From a virus: a stretch of DNA of 64,000 bases. This document shows positions 5,155 to 27,179 of the stretch, piece after piece. How positions within the stretch are numbered: position 1 is the stretch's first letter; every line of letters begins with the position of its first letter. The notes beneath the pieces are model-generated. The model saw only the letters and a list, made by a program, of their open reading frames with translations. It had not been told where the DNA came from and ran no database searches. The stretch is from IMG/VR virus record IMGVR_UViG_3300032086_003078, positions 1-64,000 of that record, one strand, 5' to 3'. A program made the position numbers and the translations under genes.

Positions 5155-8100
5155 ATGGTACGGCTCGCACATTTTGGTGATACACACATCAAGAACCTCA
5201 AATACCACTATGAATATCGCAAGGTGTTTGAACAAGCCTACGAGATGCTACGGGAGCAGAAGGTTGATTACATTATCCACTGCGGCGACCTAGCCCATAC
5301 AAAGACACAACTCTCACCAGAGTATTTCGAGTTGGCTACAGAGTTCCTAAAGAACCTAGCCGACATCGCTCCAACCCATATCATCCTTGGGAACCACGAC
5401 GGCAACCTACGGAATAGCAGCCGCCAAGACGCCATCAGTCCAATCGTTGATGCGCTCGACCACCCTGACCTTCACCTACACAAGTTTTCAGGGGAAGTAA
5501 AATTAGATGATAACATTACACTAAATGTTCTATCAGTCTTTGACGAGACCAACTGGACTGACCCAACAGATACAGACAGGATTAACATTGCCCTGTATCA
5601 TGGAGCAGTCAATAACAGCCGAACAGACCTTGGCTGGATTATGGACCACGGCGACCATGACGTTTCAGTCTTTGATAAATTTGATTATGCGTTCCTTGGA
5701 GATATTCACAAGACTAATCAGTGTCTCAATGACTCAGGCACCATTCGCTATTGCGGTTCTACTATCCAGCAGAATCACGGCGAGACAAACGACAAGGGCT
5801 TTTTGATTTGGGATATTGAGGACAAGACCAATTATGAGGTCAATCACCACGTCCTAGAAAACCCCAAACCCTTTATGACGATTGAACTCACACAAAAGGG
5901 CAATATGCCTCGCAACCTAAACGTGCCCGAAGGTGCTCGTCTTCGCATTGTTACGCACCACAAGGTTTCGCTAGACAAGATCCGCCGTGTGATGGATATT
6001 GCGAAGAGCAGGTTCAAGCCAGAGAGTTTGTCGTTCGTCAACAAAGCAGGGCTAAAGCGGGACAGCGTGAATGTCGATGACCTTGGCAACACAGAGAACC
6101 TACGAGACCCAGCCGTCCAAGAGCGACTTATTCGGGAATACCTAAAAGAATATGAACCCGACACCAAAACACTAGAGCGAGTATTCCAACTTAACTCTCG
6201 CTACGACGCTCAAGTCAATGGCGAAGACGCTGGACTACGCAATGTGAATTGGTCCCTAAAGAGTATGGAGTTCGACAACCTCTTTAACTACGGAGAAGGC
6301 AATAGTGTTAATTTTGAAAAGCTTAGCGGCGTTGTCGGTATCTTTGGTAAAAACTATTCAGGCAAGAGTTCTATTATCGATAGTATGCTCTACACTGTTT
6401 ATAATTCGATCAGTAAGAACAATCGTAAGAACCTAAACATTATCAACCAGAACAAGCCCGCAGGCTGCGGACGAGTTGAGATTGACGTTGCGGGCAAAAC
6501 CTACATCATTGAGCGGAAGTCAGAGAAATACACTAAGAAGCTTCACGGGGAAGAAACAGAAGAAGCCAAGACCGATGTAGAGTTTTCAGTGATTGACCCA
6601 GCCACTGACGAAGAAGTCAGCCTAAACTCGTTGGACCGCAACGGCACAGATAAGGCAATCCGTAAAATCTTTGGAAGCCTTGATGACTTCTTGCTTACAA
6701 GTATGTCTAGTCAAATGGGGGCAATGACTTTCATCAACGAGGGCTCAACCAAGCGCAAGGAAATCCTAGCCAAGTTCTTGGACCTCGACCAGTTTGAGAA
6801 GAAGTTTAAGCTTGCGAAGAACGACAGTATAGAAACCCGTGCTCTTTTAAAGAAGCTGGAAGACAACACTTTTGATGACGATATTGCTAATCTTCAGGAA
6901 CAACTAGCTACAAACGAAGAACAAAAGACAGAACAAGAAAACTCTTGTAAAAAGTTTAAAGACAAGTTAAACAAAATCACAGAACGTGTCGATGAAATAC
7001 AAGACCTCTTTGCGTCCGCTCCAGTTGAGATTATCAACATCAAGAAAGAGAACAAGCGTCTTACGACAGCAACTGCTGAACTAGAAGAATGCGAACTACG
7101 AATTGCGGGAGCACAAAAGAAAAAAGAAATACTTCTAGAAAAACTAACCAAGATTAATGATTTCTTGGAAGAGTATGATAGCGAAGCATTAGACGCTCAA
7201 ATCGCTGAAGTCCTATTAATCAAAGAAGAGATTAGAGATGTAGAGACAAAACTTACGATTGAGAACCGCAACAGGAAGAACTACGAGAAGCGTGTTAAGC
7301 TTTTGGGAGAAGTTCCTTGTGGTCCAGAGTTTTCACATTGTAAGTTTATTAAGGACGCCTACAAGAGCAAGTCAAAGCTCACCGACGTTCGCATTACAAT
7401 CCACAATCTAGAAACAGAGCTTCGTCAGCACAATGAAAAGCTTGATGAAATGAATGTTGATAGTTTGCGTTCTCAAAAGGAAAAGCACGATAAACTCCTA
7501 GAGAAACAAAGAGATTTGTCAACTGAAGCAACCAGCCTTGATTTGCTGGTAGAAAAAACAAACAATGAAATTAATACGCTTACTAATGATATCAAAGATG
7601 CTACCGACCGCATCCAAATCTACGAAGACAACAAAGAAGCTATTGAAAATCGTGAAGGACTTATTCAAGAACAGTCCGATTTAGGGGAACAAAAAATCCT
7701 AACAGAGAATGAGCTAGTTATTTGTGAATCTAAGATTATGGACTTCATTAAGCAGCACGGCGGCATTGAACAACAGATTGCGAACCTCCAAGATAAGAAG
7801 CAAGAATTGGAAGACCTTCGCACAGAGTATTCAGCCTATGACTTGTTTATGCGTTGTACTCACAGCAACGGCATCAGTTATGATGTAGTGAAGCGTATGC
7901 TACCTCTTATCAATGAAGAGGTCAGCACTGTTCTATCTAACGTCACTGACTTTGAGATTTTCTTCGAGGCAGAAAAGAATAAACTAGACATTTTTATTAA
8001 GCACCCCAAATACGAAGCACGACCTTTGGAAATGGCTTCAGGTGCTGAAAAGACTTTGGCGGCTATCGCTATCCGCATCGCTCTAACCAATGTATCAACT

Positions 8101-8307
8101 CTACCCAAGAGTTCGCTAATGGTACTTGATGAGCCCGGTACAGCATTGGATGCTGAAAACCTTGAGGGCTTTACAAGGATTTTGGAAATGATTAAGGGAT
8201 ACTATAAAACTATTCTTTTAATCACTCACGTCCAAGACCTCAAAGACCACGCTGATATGACGATTGATATTGACCACGTAGATGGCTACGCAAAAGTAGT
8301 ACAATAA
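5155..8307 (+). CDS. sbcD-sbcC: Mre11/SbcD nuclease - Rad50/SbcC ATPase fusion (gp47-gp46-like)
   Basis: Phosphoesterase motifs DTH, GD, GNHD, GDIH; Walker A GKNYSGKS; long coiled coil; central CGPEFSHC; signature ASGAEK; Walker B VLDEP; ITH. Confidence 0.95.
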   Translation: MVRLAHFGDTHIKNLKYHYEYRKVFEQAYEMLREQKVDYIIHCGDLAHTKTQLSPEYFELATEFLKNLADIAPTHIILGNHDGNLRNSSRQDAISPIVDALDHPDLHLHKFSGEVKLDDNITLNVLSVFDETNWTDPTDTDRINIALYHGAVNNSRTDLGWIMDHGDHDVSVFDKFDYAFLGDIHKTNQCLNDSGTIRYCGSTIQQNHGETNDKGFLIWDIEDKTNYEVNHHVLENPKPFMTIELTQKGNMPRNLNVPEGARLRIVTHHKVSLDKIRRVMDIAKSRFKPESLSFVNKAGLKRDSVNVDDLGNTENLRDPAVQERLIREYLKEYEPDTKTLERVFQLNSRYDAQVNGEDAGLRNVNWSLKSMEFDNLFNYGEGNSVNFEKLSGVVGIFGKNYSGKSSIIDSMLYTVYNSISKNNRKNLNIINQNKPAGCGRVEIDVAGKTYIIERKSEKYTKKLHGEETEEAKTDVEFSVIDPATDEEVSLNSLDRNGTDKAIRKIFGSLDDFLLTSMSSQMGAMTFINEGSTKRKEILAKFLDLDQFEKKFKLAKNDSIETRALLKKLEDNTFDDDIANLQEQLATNEEQKTEQENSCKKFKDKLNKITERVDEIQDLFASAPVEIINIKKENKRLTTATAELEECELRIAGAQKKKEILLEKLTKINDFLEEYDSEALDAQIAEVLLIKEEIRDVETKLTIENRNRKNYEKRVKLLGEVPCGPEFSHCKFIKDAYKSKSKLTDVRITIHNLETELRQHNEKLDEMNVDSLRSQKEKHDKLLEKQRDLSTEATSLDLLVEKTNNEINTLTNDIKDATDRIQIYEDNKEAIENREGLIQEQSDLGEQKILTENELVICESKIMDFIKQHGGIEQQIANLQDKKQELEDLRTEYSAYDLFMRCTHSNGISYDVVKRMLPLINEEVSTVLSNVTDFEIFFEAEKNKLDIFIKHPKYEARPLEMASGAEKTLAAIAIRIALTNVSTLPKSSLMVLDEPGTALDAENLEGFTRILEMIKGYYKTILLITHVQDLKDHADMTIDIDHVDGYAKVVQ

Positions 8308-8365
8308 AATCAATAAAAAGTTACTTTTTAGTAACCTTCCAAACTATATACTATAGGAGGAAAAA

Positions 8366-8524
8366 ATGAAGGTATTAAGGATTAATCAAGACACGCACAA
8401 TGCTCTAAAGGAGTATTGTAAAAGAAATGGATTAAAGTTAAACGCCTTCGTAGAAATAATCCTCCGCAAGAAGTTAAAAAGTTTGGAGGAACAAGAAAGT
8501 GAAAGAGACCAAGACTTGTACTAG
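8366..8524 (+). CDS. Ribbon-helix-helix-like small DNA-binding protein (52 aa, not in ORF track)
   Basis: AGGAGG SD; MKVLRINQDTHNALKEYCKRNGLKLNAFVEIILRKKL has a strand-helix-G-helix pattern; overlaps the HNH gene start. Confidence 0.65.
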   Translation: MKVLRINQDTHNALKEYCKRNGLKLNAFVEIILRKKLKSLEEQESERDQDLY

Positions 8525-9182
8525 GTGTAAAGTAGAGAAGCCAATGACTAAAGAGTATTTTTATACGGCTCCTCTACACAGGCAGAAAACAGGGTTCAGG
8601 TCCCAGTGTCGTGACTGTTATGCTCTTTATCGTCAAGAAAATAGAGAGAAGATAAGAAAGTCAAATAAAGCAACTTACGACAAGAACTATGCTAGCAAAT
8701 ACAGTGCTAGAAGAAAAGAGTATGTTAAAACGGAGCACGCTAGAGAAGTCAATAGGAAATGGAAAGAAAAAAACAAAGATAGGCTCTTGGAACATAAAAG
8801 AAAGTATATGAGAGAATACTATGGGAGAAGGCTTAAAGAAGAGCCAGAGTTGCGACTACGATTTAATGTATCTAGAAATGTTCGCTTCGCCATAAAAAGA
8901 AGCCAAGGCTCAAAGCGTGGTAAAAGCACTTTTGATTATTTACCCTATACACCAGAAGAGTTAAGGCAGCATTTAGAACTACAGTTTGACGATAATATGA
9001 ACTGGGAAAACTATGGAGCATATTGGGACATAGACCACATTTATCCTCAATCAAAACTTCCTTATGATAGTTTAGAGCACCCAAACTTTACAAAATGTTG
9101 GTCCCTTGATAATCTACAACCACTAGAGAAAAAAGAGAACATAAGAAAAGGAAATAAGACCATTGACGGAAACAAAAAATAA
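8499..9182 (+). CDS. HNH homing endonuclease with N-terminal zinc finger
   Basis: CxxC pairs (CTRC, CRDC); HLELQF..MNWENYG..WDIDHIYP...NLQPL...EN.RKGN HNH core. Confidence 0.85.
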   Translation: MKETKTCTRCKVEKPMTKEYFYTAPLHRQKTGFRSQCRDCYALYRQENREKIRKSNKATYDKNYASKYSARRKEYVKTEHAREVNRKWKEKNKDRLLEHKRKYMREYYGRRLKEEPELRLRFNVSRNVRFAIKRSQGSKRGKSTFDYLPYTPEELRQHLELQFDDNMNWENYGAYWDIDHIYPQSKLPYDSLEHPNFTKCWSLDNLQPLEKKENIRKGNKTIDGNKK

Positions 9183-9191
9183 TATTATTAT
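9163..9191 (+). promoter_or_regulatory. Promoter with conserved TTGACGGAAACAAAAAA box
   Basis: TTGACG-17 nt-TATTAT; the same box recurs at 10088, 46138 and 52983. Confidence 0.6.
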
Positions 9192-9217
9192 GTGCCCGCA
9201 AAGTGCGGAACAAAAGG

Positions 9218-9246
9218 TTGACATTTAGTGCTAGGTGAGGTATAGT
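9218..9246 (+). promoter_or_regulatory. Near-consensus sigma70 promoter
   Basis: TTGACA-17 nt-TATAGT. Confidence 0.75.
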
Positions 9247-9260
9247 TGTATCAAATGAAG

Positions 9261-9328
9261 TTACCCCGCTCGTAGCGGGTGGGGCTGGAAACAGCCAGTT
9301 AGGTGGGGTGGTTGCCTAACACCTTTTT
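9261..9328 (+). ncRNA. Structured 5' leader or small RNA (three hairpins, possible pseudoknot, U-tract)
   Basis: GC-rich island with stems cccgct/agcggg, ggctg-GAAA-cagcc and gttaggt/gcctaac, followed by accttttt. Confidence 0.55.
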
Positions 9329-9342
9329 AGGGAAAACAAAGA

Positions 9343-9921
9343 ATGAACAACATTGAGGACATTAAAAACAAATGGGAGAACGCAAGGCTTCTAGAAGAAC
9401 TACCAGAAGACGAGCAATATTCTATGAGTCAATTGTTAGAAAATGAAGCAAGACATATTCTATCTACTTACCAAGATGTAAATGAAAGTCAATTAGCATA
9501 CATTTGTTTTCCTTTAATTCGCAGGATATTCCAATCATTAGGTTTTTTTGAAGAAGGTGATTGCCCACTCACTTTCACATACGAAACAAGTGCTCTTCCC
9601 GCATTTACCTACTTCAAGCCAGACGAAGAAGAATCAAGTGTTGCAACAACTCAGGTTTATGATTTTGAATCCTCGCCAAGCAAAGAAGTAGTTGAGAAAA
9701 TCTGTTCTAATTGTTATTATTCTCTGGATGCGGAAGTTGGACTAACAGCAGAACTCGCTGAAAGATTCAGAAACGAACTTAACGAGAAACACAAAGGAAA
9801 ACATCTTATTTTTGGAGATCCAATTATGATGAGAGAAGAAGACGGCGAAAGGATTTATTCTTATCGTTGTGCGGTTTTACCGGGAGGTTCAAGATTACAC
9901 GAAGGAGGATATAAAGAATGA
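9343..9921 (+). CDS. Truncated paralog of the major capsid protein
   Basis: KWENARLLEEL...SMSQLLENEA...CFPLIRRIF and YYSLDAEVGLTAELAE match MCP KWQKTGLLEGL...SMARLLENQA...AFPIVRRVF and YHNLDAEVELTSILSE. Confidence 0.8.
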   Translation: MNNIEDIKNKWENARLLEELPEDEQYSMSQLLENEARHILSTYQDVNESQLAYICFPLIRRIFQSLGFFEEGDCPLTFTYETSALPAFTYFKPDEEESSVATTQVYDFESSPSKEVVEKICSNCYYSLDAEVGLTAELAERFRNELNEKHKGKHLIFGDPIMMREEDGERIYSYRCAVLPGGSRLHEGGYKE

Positions 9922-10082
9922 AAGCCGGTGACTTGGTAAAAGCACACAATAAAGCACAAACTATTGGGGTTGTTATGTGTGTTGAGGCATCCCGTATACA
10001 GGTTCTTGCCGAGGGCGAAATGTGCTGGTGGTGGGAACATAATGCGACGATTATTTCAGAGGTTGTAAGTGAAAGTCGGTGA
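9918..10082 (+). CDS. Small KOW/SH3-like protein (54 aa, not in ORF track)
   Basis: AGGAGG SD; MKAGDLVKAH...IGVVM...RIQVL...VVSESR. Confidence 0.7.
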   Translation: MKAGDLVKAHNKAQTIGVVMCVEASRIQVLAEGEMCWWWEHNATIISEVVSESR

Positions 10083-10273
10083 TGATTTTGACGGAAACAA
10101 AAAATAAGATTATAAAACATCCGTACATTAGAGTAGAATATGAATGGGAAGTTCTAGAAGAGAACATTCCAGGCAAAGAAGTTTACCCTCCAATGACAGC
10201 ACTTCACGATGTTATGTTTATGAGGCTCCGAAGATTGAGCGACGGATTTATTTATGAAACTAGACAAAAATAA
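10079..10273 (+). CDS. Hypothetical protein (start uncertain)
   Basis: Fills the gap between + strand genes but overlaps a predicted promoter. Confidence 0.35.
   Translation: MMILTETKNKIIKHPYIRVEYEWEVLEENIPGKEVYPPMTALHDVMFMRLRRLSDGFIYETRQK
10088..10116 (+). promoter_or_regulatory. Promoter with conserved TTGACGGAAACAAAAAA box
   Basis: TTGACG-17 nt-TATAAA. Confidence 0.6.
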
Positions 10274-10757
10274 AATAGTTAAACAAATGACCGACTATGT
10301 TGTTGATGTTTTGGAGGAGAGGAGACCTGAGTTTTCAGGAATGCCAGTCTGTCCTTTTGTAAAACCAGACAGAATAACAGACCAGCTTTATATGGATGTT
10401 TTTGATAATACTCGTGACACACTTGTAGAAACGATCTTGAGGTTTGTTAAGTCAGGGAAAAGAAGCGCCCTGTTCGCACAGCCTAACGTTGATATTGGCA
10501 GCGAGGAAACAAAAGGATACCAAGAGTTTATAAACATTGTACTAGAAGAAAGTGGAAATGGGGATATTCTAGCTTTGTGTTTCAACCCTAATGATGATTT
10601 GGAGGTGGATGGTTATAACCCAAGATCAAGAGCGCCTTATTTTTTGATAAACATGGCATATAGGGATCATCTATCTAAGTCGCATCATATTCTACGAGAA
10701 ACAAAATACTATGATAACCTGCCCCCAAGCTATAAAAAGTACCTGAATGTAAAATGA
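10254..10757 (+). CDS. Hypothetical protein with CPF motif (DUF1415-like)
   Basis: MPVCPFVK near the N-terminus; FNP and RSRAPY later. Confidence 0.5.
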   Translation: MKLDKNKIVKQMTDYVVDVLEERRPEFSGMPVCPFVKPDRITDQLYMDVFDNTRDTLVETILRFVKSGKRSALFAQPNVDIGSEETKGYQEFINIVLEESGNGDILALCFNPNDDLEVDGYNPRSRAPYFLINMAYRDHLSKSHHILRETKYYDNLPPSYKKYLNVK

Positions 10758-11383
10758 AAATACTAATCAGTTCTTGTGTGTTTGGAAACAGAGTGAGGTG
10801 GAATGGTAGCAATCGCCGCTCTGAAGAGATACACGAGTGGGCTGAAGCCAACGGCTTTGAACTTGTTCCAATATGTCCAGAGCACGAGCTTTTTGGCACC
10901 CCACGAAAGCCAATCAGGCTCCGTCAAAAAGATGACGAAGTTTTGGGAATTATGGGCAACCAAGAAGTTTTCGGGCAACTAAAAGATAAATGCGATGAAA
11001 TCGCAGAAAGACACAACGATGTAGTTGGCTTCATTGGAATATCTAATTCACCTTCCTGCGGCTTATCTACAGGTGTAAAAGACAGAGGTTCAACAATAAA
11101 AGCACCTATGCATCAGAGCCTTGACTGTCCAACAACAGAGATAAGCTCAATGAATACGGAAGCAAATTGCAATACATTTTTAAAAAGAGTAAGAAAATAC
11201 GAGAACGACAAGAAGATAAAGAAACTTCACGACCTTGCTGTGTTGAGAGGGTCAAGTACATACCAAGATCCTGAGACCGGCTTCTTGGTTATGACGAGCC
11301 AGTATCTAAGTTCCAAAGGGTCTTGTTGCGAAACAGGCTGCCGCCACTGCCCTTGGGGAAAAGTAAGAAAGAACGGGAAATGA
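10754..11383 (+). CDS. DUF523/TudS-like Fe-S protein fused to a C-terminal Cys-rich DUF5522-like domain
   Basis: ILISSC..G..VRWNG, PICPE, GTPR, SPSCG (DUF523); YQDPETG...CCETGCRHCPW (DUF5522-like). Confidence 0.75.
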   Translation: MKILISSCVFGNRVRWNGSNRRSEEIHEWAEANGFELVPICPEHELFGTPRKPIRLRQKDDEVLGIMGNQEVFGQLKDKCDEIAERHNDVVGFIGISNSPSCGLSTGVKDRGSTIKAPMHQSLDCPTTEISSMNTEANCNTFLKRVRKYENDKKIKKLHDLAVLRGSSTYQDPETGFLVMTSQYLSSKGSCCETGCRHCPWGKVRKNGK

Positions 11384-11577
11384 AAATAGGCGATTTAGTA
11401 CAAAGCAATATCTTTTTAAAGACAGGTTCAGGACCATACGGACTTATAGTAGGAGAGTACCCAACACCAGGCTACTGGAATGTCAAATGGACTACCGCAG
11501 ACTGGGACCTCTCATATCAGCTTGCCGCAATGTACGAAGTGCATGAGAGAGATTTGGTGGTAGTTTCAGAATCATGA
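11380..11577 (+). CDS. Small KOW/SH3-like protein
   Basis: MKIGDLVQ...GLIVGE...WNVKW...VVSES; ATGA overlap with the upstream gene. Confidence 0.7.
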   Translation: MKIGDLVQSNIFLKTGSGPYGLIVGEYPTPGYWNVKWTTADWDLSYQLAAMYEVHERDLVVVSES

Positions 11578-11777
11578 GAGCAGGCGACCTCGTAAGATTC
11601 AGGGAATGTATTTGGCATATCGAGCCTAAAAAATATACTGATTGGAAAGTTGGACTTTTAATGGAGTATGTTTCCTGGACGAAGATAGCAAAGATACTTT
11701 ACGAGGGAGAGATATATACTGCTCGTGCTTGCGATGTTCAACTCCACAAGCGAGCCAAAAGAGAACGCCAGAACTAA
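11574..11777 (+). CDS. Small KOW/SH3-like protein
   Basis: MRAGDLVRF...VGLLME...AKILYEGE. Confidence 0.7.
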   Translation: MRAGDLVRFRECIWHIEPKKYTDWKVGLLMEYVSWTKIAKILYEGEIYTARACDVQLHKRAKRERQN

Positions 11778-11805
11778 TTACTCTTACTAAGGAGGTGTTA
11801 ATATT

Positions 11806-11991
11806 ATGCAAGAGAAACTTGATAATATACTTGGAAAATGGGCATCTCGCAAACTTATTGTTTGGGGCACAGCCACGGTTTTTTTAGCAGTCGGTTCTTT
11901 AACTAGTGGCGACTGGGTTGCTGTTTCACTAGCATATATCGGACTTCAGGGCGCTGCTGATATTGCTGCGACTTGGAGGCACGGCAAGTGA
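11806..11991 (+). CDS. Holin-like two-TM protein
   Basis: 61 aa; SRKL motif followed by two hydrophobic helices; AGGAGG SD; late-type motif ACTAATTA at 11773. Confidence 0.55.
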   Translation: MQEKLDNILGKWASRKLIVWGTATVFLAVGSLTSGDWVAVSLAYIGLQGAADIAATWRHGK

Positions 11992-12302
11992 AAGGACTTT
12001 GGTACAAGATGAAAAGCAGCGCTTGGTCACTTGCTTTCTTGGTTGTTATGGTCCTTGGTATGGCTTGGTTTGTTTATAATATTTTGCGTCCCACCAAAAA
12101 CAAGACTCAATACTTGGAAGGTGTTCAAGGAAAAATTAACGCTGCTATAAAAGAAAACCAAATCCGTGCTAAACTAGAGAAAGATAAGATTGGGGCAATC
12201 AAGAAGATTTACGATCAAAAACTTAAGGAAACAAAAGAAATACAAGATCGTGAAGAAAGATTGAAAGCCCTAATTAGATTGCACGAAGAACTAGATTTAT
12301 AA
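11988..12302 (+). CDS. N-terminal TM + coiled-coil protein (i-spanin-like topology)
   Basis: GGAGG SD, GTG at 11988; AWSLAFLVVMVLGMAWFVY followed by a charged coiled coil. Confidence 0.55.
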   Translation: MKGLWYKMKSSAWSLAFLVVMVLGMAWFVYNILRPTKNKTQYLEGVQGKINAAIKENQIRAKLEKDKIGAIKKIYDQKLKETKEIQDREERLKALIRLHEELDL

Positions 12303-12315
12303 GGAGACTAGTAAA

Positions 12316-13452
12316 ATGGTAGATATCCCTACACTAGACATTGAAGATTACGACCCAGACCTCAATGAGGAACAGGAGACGGTTGAAGATAAATCGGGTG
12401 GTGCCCTAACTTACGCTATTGTTGGCGCAGGTCAAGGTGGTGGTCGTATGGCTAAAGCCTTTTATGATATGGGCTACACAAAGACCGTTGCTGTGAATAC
12501 AGCCCGCTCTGACCTTAATGGTCTAGATATCCCAGAGAACCAAAAGTTCTTGGTCGATGAACACGGCGAGCAGGGTGCTGGCAAAGACCAAGCCAAAGCC
12601 GAAGCAGCCATCGAGCGTAAAGAACAAGAAGTGTTCAACAAGTTCCGTGAAGTATTCGGCAGCAACGTTGATCGCATTTTGATTTGTCTTGGTGTTTCGG
12701 GCGGCTCTGGCGGCGGCACAGTCAATACTCTTATCAAGGTAGCCAAGAAGTACTTCACCTACATCGGCGTTGAGAACGTTGATGAGCGTGTTGGTGTGAT
12801 TGCTTCCCTTCCAACTGCTGGTGAGTCTGCTTCCCCAACCGTAGCCAAGAACGCTCACACTCGCATTACCCAACTTTGCGGGCTCGCAGAAAAAGGAAAG
12901 ATCGCTCCACTCATTATGGTGGATAACGAAAAGATCAAAAAACTATATCCAAAACTCACAGTCAAGAAGTTCTGGACCACAATCAACAACACAGTCGCTG
13001 GCTTGTTCCACGTCTTCAACGTTCTAGCAAACCAAGACTCAGAATACACAACCTTTGATGCTACAGATTACGACAGTATCATGAAGCAGCCAGGCTGTAT
13101 GATTATGGGTGTTACCAGTGTCAAGAACCTTGAGAACGAAACTGCTGTCTCAAGTGCTCTCAAGAAGAACCTAGAGAAAACACTTCTCGCTGAAGGTTTC
13201 GACCTAACAACTGCTACAGGTGCTGCTTGTATTGTTGTTGGTAGCGAAGAGATCTTTGAAGAGACTGTTGGTTTGATGGACAACATTGAGTTCGGCTTCG
13301 ATACTTTAGCTGCTTTGACTGGTGGTGCTATGGTTCACCGTGGTATCTACGAGGACGACAAGAAAGACAAGCTCGTAACTTACACATTGGTCAGCGGTCT
13401 TAAGCGACCAGCCAAGCGAATTGAAGGACTAAAGAAATTCCTAAAGAAGTAA
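12316..13452 (+). CDS. FtsZ/tubulin-family GTPase
   Basis: VGAGQGGGRM (T1), AVNT, GAGKD (T3), GGSGGG signature (T4), VDN, TFDATD (T7-like). Confidence 0.92.
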   Translation: MVDIPTLDIEDYDPDLNEEQETVEDKSGGALTYAIVGAGQGGGRMAKAFYDMGYTKTVAVNTARSDLNGLDIPENQKFLVDEHGEQGAGKDQAKAEAAIERKEQEVFNKFREVFGSNVDRILICLGVSGGSGGGTVNTLIKVAKKYFTYIGVENVDERVGVIASLPTAGESASPTVAKNAHTRITQLCGLAEKGKIAPLIMVDNEKIKKLYPKLTVKKFWTTINNTVAGLFHVFNVLANQDSEYTTFDATDYDSIMKQPGCMIMGVTSVKNLENETAVSSALKKNLEKTLLAEGFDLTTATGAACIVVGSEEIFEETVGLMDNIEFGFDTLAALTGGAMVHRGIYEDDKKDKLVTYTLVSGLKRPAKRIEGLKKFLKK

Positions 13453-20002: not shown

Positions 20003-20596
20003 ATGACTAAGAAATACGTACTACAAGAGTTTATGAACCTAGATTACAGCGACGATCTTCTCACAGAAGAAGAGCGTGAAGGTAATCGCCAAGGGATACA
20101 CCTTATTGTAGCAGGGAAGATACAGGCTGCCGGCAAAAAGAACGGCAACGGGCGTATTTACCCCCGACCAATCCTCGAAAGAGAGATGAAGAACTACGAA
20201 AAGCTTGTTCGTGAGGGTCGTGCTATTGGTGAACTAGACCACCCAGACAGTTCAGTCGTAGAATTGAAGAATGCTAGCCATCTAATCACACAAGTGTGGT
20301 GGGAAGGTGACGATGTCATGGGCAAAATGAAGATTTTGGATACTCCAGCGGGTCAGATCGCCAAACAACTAGTAGAAGGTGGCGTTCAGTTAGGTATTTC
20401 AAGTCGTGGTCTTGGCTCAACTCGCCAACAAGGCGGAGTTACCATGGTTGAAGACGATTTCCAACTACTTTGCTTCGACTTGGTATCAGAACCAAGCACA
20501 ACAGGTGCCTTTTTGGTTGCTGAAAGTCAAGTTAAGACACACTTAACCAAGGCTGACCGAATCAATCGTGCCTTGAACGACATTTTGGGCGACTAA
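20003..20596 (+). CDS. gp21: Prohead core protease (T4 gp21-like)
   Basis: NGNGRIYP, AIGELDHP, LGISSRGLGS, FDLVSEPS. Confidence 0.96.
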   Translation: MTKKYVLQEFMNLDYSDDLLTEEEREGNRQGIHLIVAGKIQAAGKKNGNGRIYPRPILEREMKNYEKLVREGRAIGELDHPDSSVVELKNASHLITQVWWEGDDVMGKMKILDTPAGQIAKQLVEGGVQLGISSRGLGSTRQQGGVTMVEDDFQLLCFDLVSEPSTTGAFLVAESQVKTHLTKADRINRALNDILGD

Positions 20597-25427: not shown

Positions 25428-27179
25428 ATGTCTGTAATTAACACACTCACCGAAGGCATTAGACAACGCTCTCTTGCCAATGAAGGTGAAGCTCTTCTTG
25501 AGAAGTGGCAGAAGACTGGACTCCTCGAAGGACTTGACGACCACAAAGCTGGTTCGATGGCTCGCCTTCTTGAGAACCAAGCCGCTCAGCTTCTTAAGGA
25601 ACAATCTACAATGGCTGCCGGCGATGTCGAAGGTTTTGCCTCTGTTGCTTTCCCAATCGTTCGTCGTGTATTCGGCAACCTTATCGCACAAGACCTAGTC
25701 TCAGTGCAACCAATGTCTCTACCAAGTGGACTCATTTTCTTCCTTGACTTTGTGTTCTCTGTTGATGGTGGCATGGTTGATCCAACAGACGGCACCGACG
25801 GCTTCCGCCTAGGTCAGAGACAAGACACCTCTGTTTACGGTGGTGGCAAAGTTGGTTCTGGCATCATTGATGGCGTCGATCTAGGTGGCAACAACGGTCA
25901 GCTTTCTGCTTACAGCTTGAATAACGGCTACTCTAGTCCAACAGGCTCTCAGACAGGTGTCGTTGAAGTTCTCGCCTCTGGTACTTTCGGCGACGTAGCT
26001 TCTATTCACGACTGGGCCGACGTTCTTCACAGTGATCCAGTATTTACCTCTGGTACATCTGGTTACCTCGTTGGTAAAATTCCAACACCTTCTAGCCTTA
26101 ACAAGGATGACTTGGTAGCTGTTACCTTGTCTAGTTCTCTTGGTAACGCTGGTCTATTTGACGGCGGCGCTCGAAGCTGTTTCCAAGTACGTCGCTTGAC
26201 ACAGTTCTCTGGTACAGCCGAAGACCACCTACTAGTTGTTTTGGCTCAGCCAACAATAGCTACTGCTGATGACGCACACACAATTCTTAGTGCTGCTGCC
26301 GGTGAGGTTGGTTCTAGCACCTTCCCAATTGTTGATGGCTTCAACAACGGCGGCGCTATTGGTTCTATAGTTGGTGAGGCAACTTGGGGTCTTGAAGCCC
26401 AAGCCGGCATCCCAGAAATCGACATCAAGGTTGATTCTACTGCCGTAACAGCTATCACCAAGAAGCTTAAGGCTAAGTGGTCTCCAGAGCTAGCTCAAGA
26501 CTTGAATGCTTACCACAACCTCGACGCTGAAGTTGAGTTGACAAGCATCCTTTCTGAGCAAGTTGCTCTTGAAATCGACCAAGAAATCCTTGAAGATCTC
26601 GTCAAGGGTGCTACCGCTGGTACATTGTACTGGTCTCGCAGCCCAGGTAAGTTCCTCAACCGTGAAACAGGTCGTCGTCTTGTCGGCACCACATACCCTG
26701 ACTTCACAGGTACTGTCTCCGAATGGTACGAAACACTTCTTGAAACAGTCAACGAAGTAAGTGCTCGTATTCACCGTAAGACACTTCGTGGCGGCGCAAA
26801 CTTTGTTGTTTGCTCTCCAGAAATGGCTAACATTCTTGAATTCACAAGCGGCTTCCGTGCCAACGTCAACGTTGATGCTGACGGCTCTTGGGGTGCTATG
26901 AATGTCGGTTCTATTAGCCGTAAGATGGACATTATTGTCGATCCTTACTTTACCCGTAACTTGCTCCTTGTCGGTCGTAAGGGCTCTAGCTTCCTCGAAA
27001 GTGGATATGTTTACGCTCCTTACGTCCCACTACAAGTCACACCAACCATCTTTGGTACAGAAGATTTCGTGCCCCGCAAGGGCGTCATGACTCGCTATGC
27101 CAAGAAGATGGTGCGTCCTGACATGTACGGACTAGTTATTTGTCAAGATTTGGTCTCTAACGTCGATCATGCGTCGTAA
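25428..27179 (+). CDS. gp23: Major capsid protein (T4 gp23-like)
   Basis: LLENQ, VRRVFGNLIAQDLVSVQPMSLPSGLIF, KLKAKWSPELAQDL.AYH.LDAE.EL, YAPYVPL, GVMTRY. Confidence 0.98.
   Translation: MSVINTLTEGIRQRSLANEGEALLEKWQKTGLLEGLDDHKAGSMARLLENQAAQLLKEQSTMAAGDVEGFASVAFPIVRRVFGNLIAQDLVSVQPMSLPSGLIFFLDFVFSVDGGMVDPTDGTDGFRLGQRQDTSVYGGGKVGSGIIDGVDLGGNNGQLSAYSLNNGYSSPTGSQTGVVEVLASGTFGDVASIHDWADVLHSDPVFTSGTSGYLVGKIPTPSSLNKDDLVAVTLSSSLGNAGLFDGGARSCFQVRRLTQFSGTAEDHLLVVLAQPTIATADDAHTILSAAAGEVGSSTFPIVDGFNNGGAIGSIVGEATWGLEAQAGIPEIDIKVDSTAVTAITKKLKAKWSPELAQDLNAYHNLDAEVELTSILSEQVALEIDQEILEDLVKGATAGTLYWSRSPGKFLNRETGRRLVGTTYPDFTGTVSEWYETLLETVNEVSARIHRKTLRGGANFVVCSPEMANILEFTSGFRANVNVDADGSWGAMNVGSISRKMDIIVDPYFTRNLLLVGRKGSSFLESGYVYAPYVPLQVTPTIFGTEDFVPRKGVMTRYAKKMVRPDMYGLVICQDLVSNVDHAS

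What the first reader, a model, noticed from the sequence alone, without database searches (positions are those of the whole stretch)
9343..9921. Miniature major-capsid-protein paralog under a host-type promoter: candidate decoy or assembly regulator
Seen: the 192-aa protein matches this phage's own 583-aa MCP in two blocks (N-terminal KW...LLE.L...SM..LLEN.A...FP..RR.F and Y..LDAEV.LT..L.E) and lacks nearly everything between and after. It lies 16 kb from the MCP behind TTGACA-17-TATAGT rather than the late motif. Known: capsid proteins trigger defences such as Lit (via the gp23 Gol peptide, which begins at the equivalent VRR region) and CapRel. Inference: an early-made, non-assembling capsid mimic that titrates capsid sensors, or that regulates or interferes with head assembly.
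Basis: partly seen in the sequence, partly recalled or inferred. Interest (0 to 1): 0.8.

Follow-up and report, generated by a model that had tools for sequence, protein, structure and literature searches.

The report
Cut-down capsid-protein copy in marine phage
A marine T4-like phage carries a small, intact, mobile gene that copies only the leader and outer (peripheral) part of its head-shell protein, so it cannot build a shell and most likely acts as a soluble look-alike of newly made shell protein, though its job is untested.

Summary
ORF 9343-9921 (192 aa) matches the phage's own gp23-type major capsid protein (MCP, 25428-27179) in two collinear blocks (BLASTP E 2e-10 and 7e-5; profile-profile E 5e-25 and 1e-10). 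A third, weak C-terminal block is also collinear.

Mapped on T4 gp23, the protein keeps the propeptide, N-arm, spine helix and probably the last P-domain strands. It lacks the insertion and axial domains, so it cannot close a capsomer.

It is not a remnant. It belongs to an undescribed family: at least 31 clusters of 165-219 aa, forming one clade apart from MCPs, with no Pfam or PHROG family. dN/dS is 0.1-0.3.

It is an optional, mobile gene. Copies 95-98% identical sit in phages whose MCP is 43% identical and whose other shared genes are 25-62% identical, in varying neighbourhoods, mostly among small accessory genes.

The TTGACA-17-TATAGT promoter is real but unique to this genome. The conserved MCP cleavage motif is missing.

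Function is untested. My reading is a soluble capsid mimic that competes for a partner of unassembled MCP (host sensor or factor 0.35; head-assembly modulator 0.3).

This scan noted similar cut-down capsid copies on other DNA before. The structure and complex predictors were closed.

The parts
9218..9246 (+). Sigma70-type promoter-like site, TTGACA-17-TATAGT.
   Evidence: 11/12 match; one of 3 sites at 11/12 or better in 64 kb, against 0.57 in shuffles. It is not conserved in the 8 related loci.
9253..9342 (+). 5' leader with three hairpins (about 9264-9281, 9283-9296, 9298-9320) followed by a T-run. Its left edge is also a recombination boundary of the mobile unit.
   Evidence: Fold: -32.6 kcal/mol, z -1.68, and 12 of 200 shuffles fold as well, so it is not significant alone. 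The terminator-like scan picks up 9298-9320. It is shared only with L001. RNA-library contigs change context at 9251-9254. No Rfam family matches.
9343..9921 (+). Mini capsid-protein gene, 192 aa plus stop. Its TGA overlaps the ATG of the next gene.
9346..9540 (+). Block 1 (aa 2-66): MCP propeptide and N-arm look-alike (KW..LLE.L, SQLLEN.A, FPLIRRIF).
   Evidence: BLASTP E 2e-10; hhalign E 5.3e-25. MCP P76/I77 correspond to T4 G97/M98 in the N-terminal region (passages).
9568..9609 (+). aa 76-89, LTFTYETSALPAFT: a family-wide motif (F.WDV...P.F in canonical members) aligned to the MCP stretch that leads into the first insertion-domain linker.
   Evidence: The hhalign alignments place it slightly differently, so the exact register is unsure. 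P86 is nearly invariant in the 34 minis.
9631..9789 (+). Block 2 (aa 97-149): the return strand of the E-loop-equivalent linker, the short P-domain helix region and the spine helix (YYSLDAEVGLTAELAERF).
   Evidence: BLASTP E 7e-5; hhalign E 1.4e-10. Mini D129/E131 = MCP D366/E368 = T4 D285/D287. T4 residues 292, 306 and 307 lie in the spine helix (passages).
9790..9918 (+). C-terminal 43 aa (GKHLIFGDPIMM...YSYRCAVLPGGSRL): a mini-family signature, probably the last two P-domain strands.
   Evidence: Invariant in the A1 subfamily. It has a weak but collinear match to MCP 532-559: E 4e-4 to 5.5e-3 and 2.6e-4 with the canonical subgroup.
25428..27179 (+). Full-length gp23-type major capsid protein, the protein that the mini resembles.
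   Evidence: Pfam Gp23 E 7.9e-69. It aligns to T4 gp23 structures 5VF3, 8GMO and 7VS5 at E about 1e-27. It is the only full-length copy in the 88-kb record.
20003..20596 (+). gp21-type prohead protease. It is context only, showing that the MCP is expected to be processed.
   Evidence: PHROG 207, head maturation protease, E 6.4e-53.

Best explanation
The gene encodes a soluble, shell-incompetent derivative of the T4-type major capsid protein.

What it keeps: most of the propeptide (from MCP residue 18 on), the N-arm, the E-loop-equivalent linker stubs, the spine helix and probably the last P-domain strands.

What it lacks: the insertion and axial domains, which hold subunits together within a capsomer; the first 17 or so MCP residues; and the conserved maturation-cleavage motif.

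It belongs to an old, fast-evolving, optional family that moves horizontally between marine T4-like phages.

Proposed mechanism (inferred): it acts by mimicry. It displays the most conserved surfaces of newly made, unassembled MCP and competes for something that binds them. The same protein serves phages whose MCPs are only 43% identical, and it sits among sigma70-driven accessory genes. I therefore commit to a host-side target, either a sensor of new capsid protein or a host factor such as EF-Tu that the equivalent T4 region binds.

Shown: homology, domain content, selection, mobility, optional presence, presence in RNA libraries.
Inferred: solubility, early timing, binding by mimicry, identity of the target.

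Odds: about 0.6 for the generic claim (a non-assembling mimic that works by competition) and 0.35 for the host-side version.
For: Homology and domain content
- BLASTP and hhalign matches.
- Mapping to T4 gp23 through, checked against residue numbers in PMC9546572. The aligned letters at T4 A268, A275, H282, M284, D285, D287, G292, A94 and G97 fit the paper's numbering.

A real gene under selection
- 14 homologs down to 43% identity, with invariant motifs outside the MCP-like blocks.
- At least 31 full-span small representatives among the 150 listed hits.
- dN/dS is 0.115-0.30 for pairs with dS of at least 0.08.
- The spine-helix peptide in the L008 allele is identical to the MCP's over 10 residues, yet only 34/66 bases agree. 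That points to protein-level constraint, not gene conversion.

One clade, evolving fast
- The 34 minis fall on one side of a branch, SH-aLRT 99. The mini end branches listed run from 0.41 to 5.17 changes per column (most of the 23 rows flagged as long are minis), against 0.004-0.96 for MCPs.

Mobility
- The mini is 95-98% identical in L001-L005. Other shared genes there are 25-62% identical to the window's.
- In the G006 phage (280.9 kb, 92% complete) the MCP is 43% identical.
- Flanks differ on both sides.
- RNA-library contigs break at 9338-9342 and 9922 and continue into other contexts.

Optional presence
- Among records picked by their MCP, 1 of 19 IMG/VR records holds a mini, and 1 of 5 that are at least 86% complete.
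- None in Mel-JY01, immuto or RM378.

Accessory, sigma70-type context
-.

Cleavage motif
- [LV][KR]E after LLENQA is present in 21/21 MCPs, about 7 of 34 minis, and not in this one.

Background from papers
- The T4 Gol region binds EF-Tu and is called the most conserved part of gp23 (PMC3014915, passages).
- CapRel recognises the MCP P-domain (PMC9712102, passages).
Against: - No experiment or structure bears on function. The structure and complex predictors were closed.
- Known capsid sensors are activated by binding MCP, so a look-alike might trigger them. CapRel's interface also includes an A-domain loop, which this protein lacks.
- One distant member (P0034, L099) lies 3 kb downstream of the MCP inside the structural module, as an assembly or virion protein would.
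- The retained segments include all three T4 head-length mutation clusters and the scaffold-contacting N terminus. That fits a phage-side assembly role at least as well.
- The promoter is not conserved.
- RNA-library contigs do not prove transcription or timing.
- The host is unknown.
Confidence: 0.35

Rival explanations
1. Phage-side head-assembly modulator. The mini binds the scaffolding core, the portal or the P-domain edges of MCP. It either holds MCP back from off-pathway polymerisation or tunes inter-capsomer angles and head size. It works as an accessory factor, not a shell subunit.
For: - It keeps exactly the parts that, in T4, contact the scaffold (N terminus) and lie near the quasi-threefold inter-capsomer contacts. 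All three clusters of T4 head-length mutations (66/94/97, 268-287, 457-461) fall in retained segments (section 13 of PMC9546572; mapping).
- T4 portal whiskers touch Met98, His282 and Met284, which map to both blocks (passage).
- P0034 lies in the head module after the MCP.
- Ccm shows that a capsid-protein homolog can redirect assembly (abstract).
Against: - A 95%-identical mini occurs with MCPs only 43% identical. An interacting partner would be expected to co-vary with its MCP.
- It is optional and absent from 4 of 5 near-complete related genomes.
- It usually sits among sigma70-driven accessory genes far from the head genes: 15.5 kb here, 168 kb in G006, 26 kb in G016.
- The short P-domain helix sequence is not conserved among minis.
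Confidence: 0.3
2. Prohead-targeted internal protein. The MCP-like propeptide serves as an address that brings the mini onto the scaffolding core. It is then packaged and injected, like the T4 internal proteins.
For: - The propeptide motifs (KW..GLL..LLEN) are the best conserved part of the family.
- T4 head proteins use N-terminal targeting peptides removed by gp21 (passages of PMC5694885).
- The phage has a gp21-type protease.
- Other first-reader notes on this genome propose shared cleavable leaders (untested).
Against: - The mini lacks the first 17 or so residues of the MCP. The alignment starts at MCP 18-20.
- It lacks the invariant [LV][KR]E site.
- Targeting alone would not need the spine helix or the C-terminal strands.
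Confidence: 0.1
3. Weapon against co-infecting phages. The mini is a dominant-negative capsid fragment, made early, that poisons the head assembly of related competitors.
For: - It is mobile, optional and fast-evolving.
- Its N block is more like the MCPs of another lineage (45% over residues 2-63, L012 group) than like its own MCP (37%).
Against: It resembles the conserved motifs of all MCPs of the clade, its carrier's included, so self-poisoning would have to be avoided by some means not seen here. Nothing tests this idea.
Confidence: 0.1
4. gp24-like vertex protein, or a decaying remnant of a duplicated MCP gene.
For: No full-length gp24-like paralog is found in the own record or in G006. 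P0034 sits where T4 has gene 24 (the T4 gene order is recalled from memory).
Against: - Without an A domain it cannot fill a vertex.
- It is absent from most related genomes.
- It is intact in all 8 close relatives, with dN/dS of 0.1-0.3.
- It forms a wide family of conserved length.
Confidence: 0.04

Closest known systems
T4 gp23 major capsid protein (Pfam PF07068, HK97 fold; PDB 5VF3, 7VS5, 8GMO)
   Same: The propeptide motifs, N-arm, linker stubs, spine helix and probably the last P-domain strands are homologous and in the same order.
   Different: It has no insertion domain, no A domain, no conserved cleavage motif and no first 17 residues. It is 192 aa against 583. It does not reach the Pfam model. 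It is optional and mobile.
T4 gp24 head vertex protein, the paralog of gp23
   Same: It is a second, diverged copy of the capsid protein in a T4-type phage (passages in PMC5694885 and PMC9546572).
   Different: gp24 is a full HK97-fold subunit that forms pentamers. The mini has lost the domains needed for that, and it is not next to the MCP here.
SaPIbov5 Ccm, the capsid-protein homolog of a phage satellite
   Same: It is a capsid-protein homolog used for something other than building the element's own normal shell (abstract of PMC8569155).
   Different: Ccm is a full-length subunit that occupies pentamers and is carried by a satellite. The mini is a domain-deleted form carried by phages. No relative was found in 185,579 prokaryote species genomes by two pattern scans.
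T4 Gol region of gp23 (Lit/EF-Tu exclusion)
   Same: The mini keeps the stretch aligned to T4 residues about 94-115 (FPLIRRIF and what follows). The review calls this the most conserved part of gp23 and says it binds EF-Tu (passage). The Gol coordinates themselves are recalled from memory, not taken from a call.
   Different: The central VSVQPM..P.G motif of that stretch is replaced in the mini. Binding to EF-Tu or Lit is untested.
Truncated 'cryptic' prohead-protease paralogs of giant phages (SPN3US)
   Same: It is a cut-down paralog of a head-morphogenesis protein kept by large phages (passage of PMC5694885).
   Different: It derives from a different parent protein. The function of those paralogs is also unknown.

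Membership tests
gp23-type major capsid protein (PF07068) | Matches the Pfam Gp23 model above its gathering score. | tested here: not met
   P0001 has no Gp23 hit at E up to 1. Among the 34 minis, 1 hits at E 0.005, whereas the MCP scores 233 bits.
gp23-type major capsid protein (PF07068) | Homologous N-terminal region and spine helix. | tested here: met
   (E 5.3e-25 and 1.4e-10).
gp23-type major capsid protein (PF07068) | Complete HK97 fold with an A domain (and, in T4-type proteins, an insertion domain) able to form capsomers. | tested here: not met
   MCP residues about 119-335 and about 390-530 have no counterpart. The whole protein is 192 aa.
gp24-type vertex protein | Full-length MCP paralog, late, next to the MCP gene, stoichiometric at vertices. 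| tested here: not met
   Length and domain content. It lies 15.5 kb from the MCP here, 168 kb in G006 and 26 kb in G016. Virion content is not testable here.
Ccm-type capsid-redirecting homolog | Encoded by a satellite or island in a cellular genome; a full capsid subunit. | tested here: not met
   It lies on phage contigs that carry their own head, tail and replication genes. No relative was found in the prokaryote genome scans. Those scans are pattern-based, so distant members could be missed.
T4-type internal or targeted head proteins (CTS proteins) | Short N-terminal targeting peptide ending in a protease site (hydrophobic-x-E), removed by the gp21-type protease. | tested here: inconclusive
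   The MCP's [LV][KR]E site is absent. However, LLE motifs inside the conserved propeptide remain, and cleavage cannot be tested here.
Gol-like EF-Tu-binding peptide | Binds EF-Tu domains II/III and enables Lit cleavage. | not testable with these tools
   There is only partial sequence correspondence.
Mini capsid-protein family defined here (alignment A3) | 165-220 aa; KW..GLL, LLEN, FP.IRR.F, F.W/Y(D/E)....P.F, D.EVE, ELN.K..GK..(V/I)F..P and a C-terminal (T)R(Y/C) motif in this order. | tested here: met
   The family is one clade with SH-aLRT 99.

The most novel reading that the evidence does not exclude
A portable immune decoy. The mini is a peripheral-domain-only capsid look-alike, made before the real capsid protein, that occupies host sensors (or host factors) recognising the conserved N-terminal and P-domain surfaces of new capsid protein, without switching them on. 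It would be one case of a wider phage habit of carrying cut-down copies of virion proteins as accessory genes.
Probability: 0.2. Interest if true: 0.85.

Novelty: new variant of a known kind. Interest (0 to 1): 0.6.

Why it matters
Capsid-protein paralogs are known as shell parts (gp24) or as satellite tools (Ccm). This is different: a widespread, selected, horizontally moving family that keeps only the leader and peripheral domain of the T4-type capsid protein. It has no Pfam or PHROG family, and four literature searches found no paper describing it.

It offers a natural reagent for two open questions:
- What, in the host or the phage, reads the conserved N-terminal and P-domain surfaces of unassembled capsid protein?
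- Do phages blunt capsid-sensing defences by mimicry?

If instead it tunes assembly, it isolates in one small protein the regions that set head length in T4.

Tried and rejected
As a result there is no fold, no docking and no contexts for most distant members.

Searches that found nothing useful
- Protein atlas: only the protein's own cluster, and no model.
- PDB by profile: only chance-level hits, E 0.11 and 0.66.
- INPHARED tblastn with P0001 and P0029: no match. Megablast of 8000-12000: no match.
- Rfam on 9000-10200: only chance-level hits.
- tRNA scan: none.
- IMG/VR scans for canonical minis: none confirmed, or all 80 kept loci were MCPs.
- The one metagenome scan gave 2 loci, of which only L099 was long enough to read a context.

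Ideas tested and dropped
- Gene conversion between MCP and mini: rejected, since 32-34 of 66 bases agree where 10 residues are identical.
- Recent duplication of this phage's own MCP: rejected by the tree.
- Remnant or pseudogene: rejected.
- T4 late-promoter 8-mer: 0 hits in the window. I did not define this phage's late motif.

RNA libraries
- Contigs of 4 of 4 runs laid cover 9342-9922 and part of the leader. There is no cover of 8300-9036. This shows presence in RNA libraries only, not timing, strand or level.
- Supplementary figures of PMC9546572 (the mutation map) could not be seen.

Full report
1. What is there

ORF 9343..9921 on the + strand encodes 192 residues. The window is the first 64 kb of an 88.4-kb IMG/VR virus record judged 48% complete. 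It carries:
- a fused Mre11/Rad50-type gene (5155..8307);
- a portal, a gp21-type protease and a gp23-type MCP;
- a TubZ-like tubulin.

The MCP's best full-length match in cultured phages is Microcystis phage Mel-JY01 at 35.7%. Flavobacterium phage immuto and Rhodothermus phage RM378 follow. The DNA occurs in seawater, marine and estuary metagenomes, with holders spread over 12 studies.

2. The resemblance is real

BLASTP of the mini against the MCP gives two collinear blocks:
- mini 2-66 against MCP 18-85: 37% identity, E 2e-10;
- mini 97-149 against MCP 336-386: 30% identity, E 7e-5.

A profile of 14 mini homologs against a profile of 21 MCPs gives probability 99%, E 5.8e-18. With 34 minis, the N block scores E 5.3e-25 and the middle block 1.4e-10.

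A third match joins the mini's C terminus to MCP 532-559. It is weak (E 4e-4 to 5.5e-3; 2.6e-4 with six canonical members). It is, however, collinear and lies at the very end of both proteins.

3. Which parts of the capsid protein are kept

The MCP aligns to T4 gp23 structures at E about 1e-27. I checked the register against residue numbers printed in PMC9546572. The aligned T4 letters at 94, 97, 268, 275, 282, 284, 285, 287 and 292 are the residues the paper names (passages; section 13 read whole).

- Block 1 is most of the propeptide (from MCP residue 18) plus the N-arm. Mini P57 = MCP P76 = T4 G97.
- Block 2 is the return linker of the insertion domain (the E-loop equivalent), the short P-domain helix region and the spine helix. 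Mini D129/E131 = MCP D366/E368 = T4 D285/D287.
- The weak third block corresponds to the last P-domain strands around the P loop.
- Missing are the insertion domain (MCP about 119-335), the A domain (about 390-530) and the first 17 MCP residues.

According to the paper, the insertion domain sits on the neighbouring subunit of the same capsomer and the A domains meet at the capsomer axis. A protein without them cannot close a capsomer. This is an inference from homology, because the structure predictor was closed.

All three clusters of T4 head-length mutations lie in segments that the mini keeps: 66/94/97 (scaffold-contacting N terminus), 268-287, and 457-461 (P loop). For the third cluster this rests on the weak match.

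4. It is a family, not a remnant

- A word-indexed search found 14 homologs at 43-97% identity. Invariant motifs lie outside the MCP-like blocks: ELNEKH.GKHLIF and YRC.V.
- An exhaustive profile search of 1.84 billion representatives gave 364 hits at E up to 1e-3. Of the 150 listed, at least 31 are proteins of 165-219 aa matched in one stretch over 150 or more of the 213 profile positions. Full MCPs (400-670 aa) are matched in two stretches.
- The 34 aligned minis share KW..GLL, LLEN, FP.IRR.F, F.W/YD....P.F, D.EVE, ELN.K..GK..VF..P and a C-terminal TRY-type motif.
- On a tree of these 34 minis, 35 MCPs trimmed to the retained segments, and two 335-aa intermediate forms, the minis fall on one side of a branch (SH-aLRT 99). 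The mini end branches listed run from 0.41 to 5.17 changes per column, against 0.004-0.96 for MCPs. This was a quick search, with warnings about long branches.
- Neither Pfam (1 of 34 hit Gp23 at 0.005) nor PHROGs (4 of 34 hit 'major head protein', with no family of their own) holds the family.
- Among eight close relatives, dN/dS is 0.115-0.30 for pairs with dS of at least 0.08.
- One allele (L008) has ten spine-helix residues identical to the MCP, yet only 34 of 66 surrounding bases agree. The likeness is therefore kept at the protein level.

5. It is mobile and optional

The coding sequence is nearly identical in L001-L008, while both flanks differ.

Identity of the mini compared with the rest of the genome:
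- In L001, L002 and L004/L005 the mini is 95-98% identical, but the other genes shared with the window are 25-62% identical.
- In G006 (280.9 kb, 92% complete) the mini is 95% identical, the MCP 43%, and the two genes are 168 kb apart.

Neighbourhood features:
- In six loci the next gene starts with the same first 15 bases as the mini, which looks like a recombination joint.
- In five of eight loci a coiled-coil gene lies just upstream.
- Contigs from four RNA libraries match 9342-9922, stop at 9338-9342 and 9922, and run on into those other contexts.

Presence or absence in related genomes:
- Of 19 IMG/VR records picked only by their MCP, one (G016) has a mini. Of the five that are at least 86% complete, one has it.
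- G016's copy lies 26 kb from the MCP among small genes between recombinase and helicase genes.
- Mel-JY01, immuto and RM378 have none.
- Two pattern scans of 185,579 prokaryote genomes found none.
- Against this pattern, the distant member P0034 lies 3 kb downstream of its MCP in the structural module.

6. Expression signals

- TTGACA-17-TATAGT at 9218 is an 11/12 match, one of three that good on this strand of the window (0.57 expected).
- It is absent from all eight relatives. Only L001 shares the hairpin leader.
- Five of the relatives (six loci, two near-identical) have sigma70-like sites of 10/12 or better 350-1900 nt upstream, heading their small-gene operons.
- The leader fold is not significant by itself (z -1.68).
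- Timing is thus suggested, not shown.

7. Processing

After LLENQA, all 21 MCPs have [LV][KR]E, a plausible gp21-type site. About 7 of 34 minis have it, and this mini does not. The mini therefore probably keeps its leader.

8. How it most likely works

The parts kept are the surfaces of unassembled MCP that are best conserved across the clade. The parts lost are those that lock a subunit into a capsomer. The generic reading is a soluble mimic that competes for a partner of new MCP (about 0.6).

Which partner?
- Portability between phages with very different MCPs, optional presence, fast evolution and accessory-gene context point to a host-side target (0.35). That could be a sensor of capsid protein, or a factor such as EF-Tu, which the equivalent T4 region binds.
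- The scaffold- and inter-capsomer-contact content, and the L099 context, point to a phage-side assembly role (0.3).
- Known sensors fire on binding, which is a real difficulty for a naive decoy.

9. Comparison and novelty

It is a homolog of gp23 but fails membership of the capsid family as a shell subunit. It is neither gp24-like nor Ccm-like.

Four literature searches found no description of such cut-down gp23 copies. Earlier notes of this scan report comparable mini copies of capsid and other virion proteins on other genomes. These are AI notes, which I used as leads only.

This is a new variant of a known kind (capsid paralog), with interest 0.6.

Noticed in passing
window 12316-13452: A TubZ/FtsZ-like tubulin gene (Pfam Tubulin 4.5e-9, TubZ-like_C 4.7e-7) lies in a T4-like phage just upstream of the packaging genes. 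It is 93-99% conserved in L006 and L008.
   Followed up: partly
window 5155-8307: A single 1050-aa ORF fuses an Mre11-type phosphoesterase (N terminus) with a Rad50/SMC-type ATPase. T4 has these as two genes, 47 and 46 (the T4 arrangement is recalled from memory).
   Followed up: no
window 9919-9940 and L001, L003-L007 just after the mini: In six related loci the gene after the mini (a 70-aa Cys-rich, zinc-ribbon-like ORF) begins with the same 15 bases as the mini itself. In L008 that gene lies before the mini. This looks like a short-homology joint for cassette shuffling.
   Followed up: partly
L002, L003, L004, L006, L007 upstream of the mini; also L001 1193-1702: ORFs of 104-237 aa all start with the same coiled-coil leader (MTDEIKELKKQVEELKKEN...) but continue differently. 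One sits directly before the mini in 5 of 8 loci.
   Followed up: no
proteins P0080 (337 aa) and P0104 (335 aa): These are intermediate forms: MCP-like proteins without the insertion domain but with a reduced A domain and the normal C terminus. P0080 also has an N-terminal Cys-rich extension. On the tree they group with the MCPs, not the minis.
   Followed up: partly
L093 1474-1818 and L097 1420-1827 (uncultured 484-kb phage LR756508): There are two separate small ORFs far from that phage's MCP. A 114-aa ORF resembles only the N block, and a 135-aa ORF resembles only the later part of the mini profile.
   Followed up: partly
L099 1425-3948: Two large Cys/His-rich ORFs (359 and 475 aa, resembling homing endonucleases by eye) are inserted between the MCP and the mini gene of that contig.
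   Followed up: no
L227 7743-7994 and 8533-8757 (G016): The mini of G016 is flanked by two paralogous small genes that share an ...HLQHQL... C terminus. That copy of the mini lacks the D.EVE spine-helix start.
   Followed up: no
window 10754-11383: A 209-aa ORF has a 2-thiouracil desulfurase domain (1.7e-18) and DUF5522 (5.8e-19), an unusual enzyme for a phage accessory region. It is conserved in L006 and L008.
   Followed up: no
window 20003 upstream and 47066 upstream: GC-rich hairpin clusters, like those in the mini's leader, occur in other intergenic regions.
   Followed up: no
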